Positions 14,841 through 16,848 of a DNA stretch of 64,000 nt are shown here, piece by piece; the stretch's first letter is position 1, and the number at the start of each line of letters is the position of its first letter. Made by a program: the position numbers and the translations under genes. This stretch comes from Eledone cirrhosa. Taxonomy: Eukaryota. The DNA lies in contig OZ024743.1 in assembly GCA_964016885.1 (NCBI GenBank), positions 232,872,001 through 232,936,000 on the forward strand, read 5' to 3'. The notes beneath the pieces were generated by a model. The model made no database searches, was not told the DNA's origin, and was given only the letters and a program-made list of their open reading frames with translations.

Positions 14841-14880
<40 letters not shown>
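14714..14880. repeat. (TG)n/(TA)n microsatellite
   Basis: Directly visible. Confidence 0.95.
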
Positions 14881-14881
<1 letters not shown>

Positions 14882-15012
14882 GATAAATCTACCAAGAGTT
14901 TACGGTAGTGTCCAATCCGTATGAAGAACTCAATGTATTCCGGATATCATGGAAAGAAGAAATGTAATGAAAAATCACTTTCGGTGAAAGATAAACGGTA
15001 TACAGAGTCAAG

Positions 15013-15417
15013 ATAAAATATTAAACAAATAATGAATAAACAATTTCTTATATTAAACAAAAAAAGTTCATTATTTAACGATCGTTTCTAGGATATATAT
15101 GTGTTAGAGTTGGCATGCATATTCAACAGATCTATGTACAAAATTATACAAAATTATACAAACTATCAAGATTAAATATACATACCAACACATATATACG
15201 CCGTCTTCAGAAATAATGAAGATTATTTCTGAAGACGGCGTATATATGTGTTGGTATGTATATTTAATCTTGATAGTTTGTATAATTTTGTATAATTTTG
15301 TACATAGATCTGTTGAATATGCATGCCAACTCTAACACATATATATCCTAGAAACGATCGTTAAATAATGAACTTTTTTTGTTTAATATAAGAAATTGTT
15401 TATTCATTATTTGTTTA

Positions 15418-15426
<9 letters not shown>
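15013..15426. repeat. Perfect foldback inverted repeat (205-bp arms, 4-nt loop GAAG), probable inverted Penelope pseudo-LTR
   Basis: 15013-15217 is the reverse complement of 15222-15426, with no mismatch found by eye. Confidence 0.92.
15222..15369 (+). ncRNA. Hammerhead-like motif with greatly extended stem II (mirror copy 15070-15217 on minus)
   Basis: AUUAUUU-CUGAAGA-[~115 nt, internally self-complementary]-GAAAC-GAUC-GUU-AAAUAAU: 7-bp stem I and palindromic stem III (ACGAUCGU). The base of stem II pairs poorly. Confidence 0.6.
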
Positions 15427-15461
<35 letters not shown>

Positions 15462-15624
15462 CACACACACATATATGTGTGTATATATATATATACACAG
15501 ACATATATATACATACATATACATGCACACACACACACATATACAAACACACACACACATATATATATATATACATACATATCTATATACATATATATAT
15601 ATATACATGTATATATATGCATAC

Positions 15625-15700
<76 letters not shown>
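15427..15700. repeat. (TA)n/(CA)n microsatellite between the two foldbacks
   Basis: Directly visible. Confidence 0.95.
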
Positions 15701-15705
<5 letters not shown>

Positions 15706-16024
15706 AACAAAAGATGGTTAAAGGAGTTCCATGTATTTTATTATGCGCATTTCAAAAACAAATATCATCATGCAATAATATTTGTGTTTTCATCAGATAA
15801 AACAGGGGGACATGATATGAAGGCTAAAAAACACTTGTGGATAGTTCAGTTTTAAATATGTTGATTTAAAACTGAACTATCCACAAGTGTTTTTTAGCCT
15901 TCATATCATGTCCTCCTCTTTTATCTGATGAAAACACAAATATTATTGCATGATGATATTTGTTTTTGAAATGCGCATAATAAAATACATGGAACTCCTT
16001 TAACCATCTTTTGTTCTTATATAT
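15697..16024. repeat. Foldback inverted repeat (~160-bp arms, 6-nt loop, 2 mismatches), probable inverted Penelope pseudo-LTR
   Basis: 15697-15857 versus 15864-16024. The ORF track shows the near-identical peptide on both strands (DKTGG vs DKRGG). Confidence 0.92.
15919..15985 (+). ncRNA. Minimal type I hammerhead ribozyme (mirror copy 15736-15802 on minus)
   Basis: UUUUAU-CUGAUGA-AAACACAAAUAUU(auugcaugau)GAUAUUUGUUUUU-GAAAU-GCGC-AUA-AUAAAA. Intact core, 6-bp stem I, palindromic stem III (AUGCGCAU), AUA cleavage triplet. Confidence 0.8.
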
Positions 16025-16102
16025 TATGTATACTCCAGTCCTACAAACTGTAGAGTGCTTCTTATCCGATATCTGCATTGTACTACAATAAAACTCACCT
16101 CC

Positions 16103-16161
<59 letters not shown>

Positions 16162-16328
16162 ATTAGAATTGGTGCTCTGAAATAGCGATATATATATATG
16201 AATGTATATATACTGTATTTTGCAATACACTGTATGCTTAATTAAAAGCATTTCGAAGATCTTACGCTATTGTTTTAGAGTAGTGACAATCTCATTTACT
16301 TTAAATTTTCAGCAAACAGGGGAGATAA

Positions 16329-16373
16329 AGCTGACAGAGCTCTGTTTCGTACTGATTGGTACTTATCAAAGCC
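16329..16373 (-). ncRNA. Hammerhead ribozyme, U3-A8 core variant, enclosed by a ~20-bp stem I extension
   Basis: Minus strand: GGCU-UUGAUAA-GUAC(caauca)GUAC-GAAAC-AGAGCUCU-GUC-AGCU. Flanking inverted repeat ATTTTCAGCAAACAGG (16305-16320) / CCTGTTTGCTGAAAAT (16384-16399). Confidence 0.7.
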
Positions 16374-16591
16374 AAGTACTCCACCTGTTTGCTGAAAATC
16401 ATGAATGTTTGATTCTTATAGAATTCTAGTAATAATCAGGAACTGATTATACAGAGAGGTTGCCGGTCAAGCAGAAATTGAAAATTAGAATTGGTGCTCT
16501 GAAATAGCGATATATATATGGATGTATATATAGTGTTCTATAAGAATCTATAAGAATTCTATAAGAATCAAACATTCATGATTTTCAGCAA

Positions 16592-16848
16592 ACAGTAAAA
16601 ATATTTAAAATATTACAAAAATTCTGCATCTAATAACTGCATATACACATGTACAGATACAAAGCATATGTACATACAACTCAAAACATGTACATCCACA
16701 CATACAATAACATCCATACCTGCACCACATGCATACATATCTACTTAGTTGATGTTGTGTAAATTCCAATGAGAGAGTCTTGTAACTATGCTAGAAAACG
16801 ACTCTCTTTCTATTGGCAAACATTTGTGAAATTATAAAACCAGAAGTA
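16592..16848 (+). mobile_element. 3' fragment of R4/Dong-type LINE (copy 2)
   Basis: Aligns to 18178-18445 (TGCATCTAATAACTGCATATACACATG...TGTGAAATTATAAAACCAGAAG) and is followed by degenerate TACA repeats. Confidence 0.85.

What the first reader, a model, noticed from the sequence alone, without database searches (positions are those of the whole stretch)
15697..16024. Second, unrelated foldback carrying an intact minimal hammerhead in each arm
Seen: ~160-bp arms, 6-nt loop and two arm mismatches (which argues against a read artefact), with a canonical CUGAUGA...GAAA core, GCGC loop 3 and AUA site. It shares no obvious sequence with the first foldback yet has the same architecture and abuts the same TA/CA microsatellite from the other side. 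Inference: two independent families produce the same outward-facing ribozyme palindrome, pointing to a general integration mechanism or a class of 'foldback retrozymes'.
Basis: partly seen in the sequence, partly recalled or inferred. Interest (0 to 1): 0.72.

Follow-up and report, generated by a model that had tools for sequence, protein, structure and literature searches.

The report
Head-to-head Hydra Penelope retroelement ends
This hairpin is one of thousands of head-to-head pairs of the ribozyme-bearing end of a Penelope-type jumping gene in TA repeats, a published layout, and its lopsided ends and fixed turning point suggest it likely forms when two separate DNA copies of the element's RNA are made and then joined.

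Summary
The palindrome and both minimal hammerhead motifs are real, but this is not a new class of element. The arm is the terminal repeat (pLTR) of a Hydra-clade Penelope-like element (PLE); its ribozyme 34-mer has 8,168 exact matches in this genome. A near full-length copy carries the RT and GIY-YIG reading frame. The neighbouring foldback belongs to a sister Hydra family (proteins 36% identical), so the two are not independent inventions. Inverted 5'-truncated pLTRs, one-sided tails, (TA)n targets and opposite-strand hammerhead pairs are all in print. A read-through RNA would bury the ribozyme in a long hairpin, which argues against a 'foldback retrozyme'. What remains of interest: 49 of 51 paired insertions have one tailed and one tail-less end, and 34 of 90 arms stop within 5 nt of one C|A site, as does this copy. 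That fits two cDNAs, primed on either side of the break, running off the RNA's 5' end and being joined. No RNA data test this. The scan reached the same reading before on other families in this genome.

The parts
15697..15857 (-). Left arm: inverted, 5'-truncated pLTR of the family-2 Hydra PLE, tail-less, outer end merging into (TA)n; stops 61 nt upstream of the hammerhead core
15736..15802 (-). Minimal type I hammerhead motif of the left arm (core starts 15796; predicted cut after 15742)
   Evidence: mirror coordinates of the right-arm motif
15856..15863 (+). Junction: right arm begins at the family's preferred 5' stop (ATATGTTG, -69 from the core); AT at 15856-15857 is a 2-nt microhomology with the left arm
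15864..16024 (+). Right arm: direct pLTR copy
15919..15985 (+). Minimal type I hammerhead motif: stem I 15919-15924/15980-15985, CUGAUGA 15925-15931, stem II 15932-15967, GAAA 15968-15971, self-complementary AUGCGCAU 15971-15978, predicted cut after 15979
   Evidence: activity untested
16025..16107 (+).
15424..15703 (.). Degenerate (TA)n/(CA)n tract, left flank, shared with the neighbouring foldback
16106..16157 (.). (AT)n tract, right flank
14876..15426 (.). Neighbouring foldback: head-to-head pLTRs of a sister Hydra PLE (family 1), arms 15013-15217 and 15222-15426, tail about 14876-15012 on the left arm only

Best explanation
The foldback is a short insertion of a Hydra-clade Penelope-like retrotransposon in a TA microsatellite, made of two head-to-head copies of the element's hammerhead-bearing end, and it likely arose when the element's enzyme primed two separate cDNAs on the two sides of its cut and the cDNA ends were then joined. 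Shown: parent element, copy number, TA flanks, one-sided tail, preferred 5' stop. Inferred: the endonuclease cuts both strands; one end primes at the pLTR end, the other about 90 nt further 3' at the tail end; each cDNA runs until it is truncated or runs off the RNA's 5' end, predicted at the C|A of window 15856; the cDNA ends anneal through 2-6 nt of microhomology or a filler. The hammerhead is a passenger of the pLTR. In the parent RNA it would act as a dimer through AUGCGCAU or with protein help, and it plays no part in making the palindrome.
For: Identity: L062 holds inverted tail + pLTR + tail + ORF (one frameshift) + 3' UTR + pLTR, 95-98% identical to the window arm and tail, with RT motifs and Hydra motifs. 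Abundance: 8,168 exact 34-mers, 0 for the reversed control. Layout: of 34 neighbouring pairs within 10 kb among the first 100 matches, 31 face outward, 0 inward; 51 of 67 loci hold an outward pair, 49 of 51 with one tailed and one tail-less end (p 1e-12 against one half), 116 of 120 ends abut TA repeats. Two cDNAs: 6 of 51 pairs join a tail-only arm to a tail-less arm, so neither arm is a copy of the other; L015, L117 and L209 have both arms near -69 with foreign filler between. Fixed stop: 34 of 90 arms reaching -67 stop at -67 to -71, against 8 of 56 over the next 128 nt; other ATAT sites at -22, -99 and -111 collect 1, 0 and 0 stops within 2 nt; family 1 has a like stop at TC|ATTAT, 8 of 26 arms at -5 to -7. 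Arms share subfamily letters: 6 of 195 discordant, 79 on shuffling. In vitro a PLE protein cuts and extends both strands and starts at two sites that bracket the tail (PMC11167929).
Against: No RNA evidence for a start at 15856: the two RNA runs found are contigs and do not cover the pLTR. I saw no TATA box about 30 nt upstream in either family (by eye). The window's own junction fits snap-back from a cDNA end at -69 with a 2-bp stem as well as it fits end joining. ATAT at the stop is self-complementary and matches the target, so microhomology may inflate it. An extra G before the stop, expected from copying a cap, is only a weak hint: 7 of 15 arms counted by eye, 2 of 17 left out as ambiguous, p 0.01 against an assumed 0.18. 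The in vitro data come from a Poseidon element, another clade. No tree was built. Pfam and PDB gave no match for the ORFs.
Confidence: 0.72

Rival explanations
1. Same element, but the palindrome forms by self-priming: one cDNA folds back at its 3' end, copies itself, and second-strand synthesis jumps to the other TA end at the TA-rich pLTR/tail border, which leaves the tail on one side.
For: Self-priming is the published reading of PLE head-to-head junctions (PMC3846280, passages). The window junction and perfect CATATG-centred junctions (L149, L197) fit it. Arms share subfamily letters.
Against: Tail-only arms joined to tail-less arms (6 of 51) and foreign fillers between two arms (L015, L117, L209) cannot come from copying one cDNA. 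It may still make a part of the junctions.
Confidence: 0.17
2. Two cDNAs, but the fixed stop is not the RNA's 5' end: it is a pause site, an endonuclease cut within the pLTR, or a microhomology trap.
For: ATAT matches the target and itself; the Poseidon enzyme nicks AT-rich DNA in its own pLTR (PMC11167929); no TATA box seen; no RNA data.
Against: Three other ATAT sites are not used; many stops at -69 have fillers instead of overlaps; both families stop at TC|A.
Confidence: 0.08
3. A 'foldback retrozyme': the ribozyme palindrome is itself a mobile unit that is transcribed, self-cleaved and reinserted.
For: Short foldbacks of near-equal size recur (16 of 31 pairs have spacings of 76-251 nt), and some family-1 junctions are identical at several loci. 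Retrozymes derived from PLE pLTRs exist (bioRxiv 10.64898/2026.07.22.740005, first fifth read).
Against: Spacing is continuous up to 6 kb and includes ORF-bearing arms; junction letters differ; the tail switches sides; the motifs are on opposite strands and the hairpin outcompetes the ribozyme fold by about 95 kcal/mol. Recurring sizes follow from the fixed stop.
Confidence: 0.02
4. Assembly or read fold-back artefact.
For: Perfect palindromes can be artefacts (recalled).
Against: Two arm mismatches, each a rare letter in the family (0 and 2 of 110 arms); one-sided tail; thousands of like loci; contigs of another run show loose ends at the same two element ends followed by TA.
Confidence: 0.01

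Closest known systems
Hydra clade of C-terminal EN+ Penelope-like elements (Craig et al. 2021, PMC8557442; passages and supplementary metadata rows seen), including Hydra-1_Obim
   Same: RW motif, DKT, CxCX5C linker, CxxC and CxH around E and N, C-terminal GIY-YIG, hammerhead in the pLTR, (TA)n target.
   Different: RWT/RWR rather than RWK; units of about 3.9 kb and 6.9 kb against 'generally <3 kb' (2,507 bp for Hydra-1_Obim). I did not compare sequence with the published consensus.
Canonical PLE insertion unit: inverted 5'-truncated pLTR plus optional one-sided tail (PMC8557442, PMC3846280, passages)
   Same: Head-to-head inversion, tail at one end, microhomology at the 5' junction, no discernible target duplication in microsatellites.
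   Different: Tail is about 90 nt rather than 30-40; here most insertions are short and many stop at one fixed site, which those passages do not describe.
Minimal hammerheads of metazoan PLEs (Cervera and De la Pena 2014, PMC4209133; first half read)
   Same: Type I, long stem II, short stem I, palindromic 15.2-16.2 and loop 3; the paper already notes dual motifs 100-700 bp apart on opposite strands in Schistosoma.
   Different: A-U instead of G10.1-C11.1, no clear bulge at the 5' end of stem II, AUA site; activity untested.
Metazoan non-LTR retrozymes (PMC7229834, search listing only; bioRxiv 10.64898/2026.07.22.740005, first fifth)
   Same: Non-coding, type I hammerhead, related to PLE pLTRs.
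   Different: Retrozymes are same-strand tandem repeats; this is an opposite-strand pair that continues into a coding element at other loci.
L1 twin priming (recalled, from no call)
   Same: Two priming events at one cut give an inversion joined by microhomology.
   Different: L1's two cDNAs cover different RNA segments; here they mostly cover the same segment and start at two fixed internal sites.

Membership tests
EN+ Penelope-like elements | Single ORF with RT and C-terminal GIY-YIG endonuclease | tested here: met
   QFD, MG, YRDD and Y..YFG motifs in L062 (split by one frameshift) and L064; by motif only, Pfam gave no family
EN+ Penelope-like elements | pLTR from partial tandem, with hammerhead | tested here: met
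   L062 has the arm before and after the ORF
EN+ Penelope-like elements | Adjacent inverted 5'-truncated copy and one-sided tail | tested here: met
   51 of 67 loci paired, 49 of 51 asymmetric
Hydra clade | RWK and DKT motifs | tested here: met
   RLRWT and SDKTN (family 2), RVRWR and SDKTG (family 1); the K of RWK differs
Hydra clade | CxCX5C linker, not CX2-5CxxC; CxxC and CxH around E and N | tested here: met
   CNCPIKNKC, CNLCLNE, N..CLH, no CX2-5CxxC in L062. Family 1: linker intact in L098 and L099, first C missing in L097
Hydra clade | Insertion into (TA)n | tested here: met
   116 of 120 ends
Hydra clade | Placement in the RT phylogeny | not tested
   No reference sequences in hand, no tree built
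Neptune/Nematis PLEs | CX2-5CxxC linker | tested here: not met
   Absent in both ORFs
Minimal type I hammerhead | Conserved core, stems I and II, palindromic stem/loop 3 | tested here: met
Minimal type I hammerhead | G10.1-C11.1 pair | tested here: not met
   A-U in this family
Minimal type I hammerhead | Self-cleavage | not testable with these tools
   Needs a bench assay
Non-LTR retrozymes | Same-strand tandem units, each with a hammerhead, no coding parent sequence | tested here: not met
   3 of 34 close pairs are same-strand, at 3.3-7.4 kb; the arm continues into an ORF

The most novel reading that the evidence does not exclude
PLE inverted repeats are made by two-ended priming, not self-priming: the protein primes two cDNAs at two fixed RNA sites on the two sides of a double-strand cut, and when it does so on the RNA's first pLTR both cDNAs run off the capped start. 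The turning points of thousands of genomic foldbacks would then map the transcription start of each family, and would explain why short pLTR stubs far outnumber coding copies.
Probability: 0.55. Interest if true: 0.55.

Novelty: new member of a known kind. Interest (0 to 1): 0.28.

Why it matters
As a single locus it is ordinary. As a family it gives a large natural record of how Penelope-like elements integrate, which the papers read call unresolved (PMC8557442, PMC11167929). The near-strict one-tail rule, tail-only arms and fixed 5' stop make two-ended priming and run-off directly testable by 5' RACE and a marked-template assay. It also warns that hammerhead palindromes in such genomes are PLE stubs, not a new RNA class.

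Tried and rejected
Rfam scan: no hammerhead family at E up to 1, only miRNA-like hits below their gathering scores. Pfam and PDB sequence search did not recognise the ORFs. I first called the element Neptune; the motifs and 58 corrected this to Hydra. I suspected that the arms come from different parent copies because C/G at 15918 differed between arms at about ten loci; this was selection by my query: C is at 0 of 110 unselected arms and arms agree at subfamily sites. The boundary column was wrong (a foldback had entered the references) and was redone; there, three pairs (L167, L172, L181) still have one arm misplaced by overlap. The pattern left out every match with A 14 nt upstream, including perfect palindromes, so I do not use it for counts. 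Core conservation is biased by the search pattern and is no evidence of selection. The energy of a hand-written dimer fold failed; only the cofold (-32.1 against 2 x -9.9) shows the intermolecular AUGCGCAU duplex. RNA runs X1 and X2 hold a small share and do not cover the pLTR. Two loose contig ends at -69 in run X7 (another organism label, small share) are too few to count. No empty-site comparison could be made. Paper searches for two-ended priming or run-off in PLEs listed nothing on it; only listings were seen for most, and supplements of PMC11167929, PMC3846280 and PMC4209133 were not read.

Full report
Observation. The inverted repeat is as described: arms 15697-15857 and 15864-16024, 161 nt, 6 nt apart, with two mismatches. 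Each arm holds a minimal type I hammerhead motif facing outward: CUGAUGA at 15925, a long stem II, GAAA at 15968, the self-complementary AUGCGCAU, and a predicted cut after 15979. My descriptor found these 2 hits in the non-satellite half of the window and none in 100 shuffles. Rfam did not report them. The first pair of stem II is A-U, where PLE minimal hammerheads usually have G-C (PMC4209133, first half read).

What the arm is. A search of the own genome returned 53 matches at up to 100% identity from 40 of 89 candidates scored. An exact 34-mer of the ribozyme occurs 8,168 times, the reversed control 0 times. Several copies run upstream into an endonuclease-like frame. L062 holds a near full unit: partial inverted tail, pLTR, tail, ORF with one frameshift, 3' UTR, pLTR. 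The window matches it at 95-98% from 15856 to 16107, so the insertion includes a tail, 16025-16107, on the right arm only. The ORF has RT motifs and the marks listed for the Hydra clade: RW, DKT, CxCX5C, CxxC and CxH around E and N, no CX2-5CxxC (PMC8557442 passages). This rests on motifs: Pfam and PDB found nothing and no tree was built. The paper's metadata list a Hydra family from an octopus with (TA)n preference.

The neighbouring foldback. Its arm occurs in tandem units of about 6.9 kb with an 827-residue frame, and its 26-mer has 2,276 exact matches. That protein is 36% identical to the family-2 protein over 694 columns, E 2e-108. It too has a tail on one arm, about 14876-15012. The two foldbacks are therefore sister families with one target; L080 and L088 show the same two families sharing a TA tract.

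Architecture across copies. I took the first 100 exact matches on contig C1 as a sample not chosen for layout. Of 34 neighbouring pairs within 10 kb, 31 face outward, 3 are same-strand, none face inward; spacings run from 76 to 6,045 nt. In the 67 loci that cover these matches, 51 hold an outward pair of element ends; 49 of 51 pair a tail-less end with a tailed end, 1 has two tails, 1 none; 6 of 51 have an arm that is tail only; 116 of 120 ends abut TA repeats. Contigs of another run show loose ends at the same two positions followed by TA. The layout is published: an inverted 5'-truncated copy next to the pLTR and a tail at one end (PMC8557442; PMC3846280), and dual minimal hammerheads 100-700 bp apart on opposite strands (PMC4209133).

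A fixed 5' stop. Of 109 arms mapped, 90 reach -67 from the hammerhead core; 34 of them stop at -67 to -71, against 8 of 56 over the next 128 nt, about 70 times the rate per base. A few boundaries are uncertain through overlap or decay. The window's right arm starts there (15856). Other ATAT sites at -22, -99 and -111 collect 1, 0 and 0 stops. In family 1, 8 of 26 arms stop at -5 to -7 and 2 of the other 18 within the next 190 nt; arms shorter than -4 could not be sampled. Both stops follow TC and begin with A, like a Pol II initiator (recalled). The Drosophila Penelope promoter and start lie in the pLTR (PMC2377424, passages). An extra G before the stop appears in 7 of 15 arms, 2 ambiguous ones left out, a weak hint of cap copying. 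I saw no TATA box, and no RNA run covers the pLTR.

Mechanism. A purified Poseidon PLE protein cuts and extends both target strands, starts at two internal RNA sites that bracket the tail, and does not need hammerhead cleavage (PMC11167929, first half read). The simplest reading of the copy statistics is two primings per insertion, one at each site, on the two sides of the cut, with the cDNA ends joined by microhomology or filler. Tail-only arms beside tail-less arms and foreign fillers between two arms (L015, L117; L209) need two cDNAs. The arms share subfamily letters (6 of 195 discordant, 79 on shuffling), so both come from one RNA or one source; this does not separate the models. The window's own junction also fits snap-back, the published proposal, which may account for part of the junctions. 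These steps are inferred.

Against a foldback retrozyme. The motifs are on opposite strands. A read-through RNA is predicted at -255.8 kcal/mol as a hairpin and -160.2 with the ribozyme kept. Junctions and spacings vary, and some arms carry the ORF. Recurrent sizes follow from the fixed stop.

Novelty. The element is a new member of a known clade in a known layout. Two-ended priming with run-off was not found in my paper searches, which cover open papers only. Earlier notes of this scan reached the same reading for other families in this genome; I had stated it before reading them, and they are not independent support. Interest 0.28.

Noticed in passing
window 16329-16373, minus strand: A third hammerhead-like motif, read by eye: U3-A8 core variant, 4-bp stem II, palindromic stem III, GUC site, inside a short inverted repeat (about 16306-16399). 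My descriptor required CUGA and missed it.
   Followed up: no
window 32614-63996: 43-bp satellite, about 715 copies, 87% matches, filling half of the window.
   Followed up: no
L209:480-640: A 127-nt decayed piece that looks like the family-1 pLTR lies as filler between two family-2 arms, as if one family's junction captured the other's RNA or cDNA.
   Followed up: no
window 16025-16107 and L031: The window's tail lacks 8 nt found in most copies; one other locus (G000:C5) matches the 126 nt at 100%, so the variant may be inherited or duplicated.
   Followed up: partly
L064 (G000:C4:256600000-256608000): A 4-kb outward pair containing a 597-residue frame, with a second short foldback of the same family beside it.
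   Followed up: partly
L061:4796-7144, L063:6547-7947, L065:1975-2748: Frames of another RT plus GIY-YIG element with a different cysteine linker lie next to family-2 copies at three loci.
   Followed up: no
window 16158-16600: A 40-nt stretch is repeated at about 16158 and 16481, and a short segment is inverted near 16400 and 16570, around the third motif; perhaps another small rearranged insertion (by eye).
   Followed up: no
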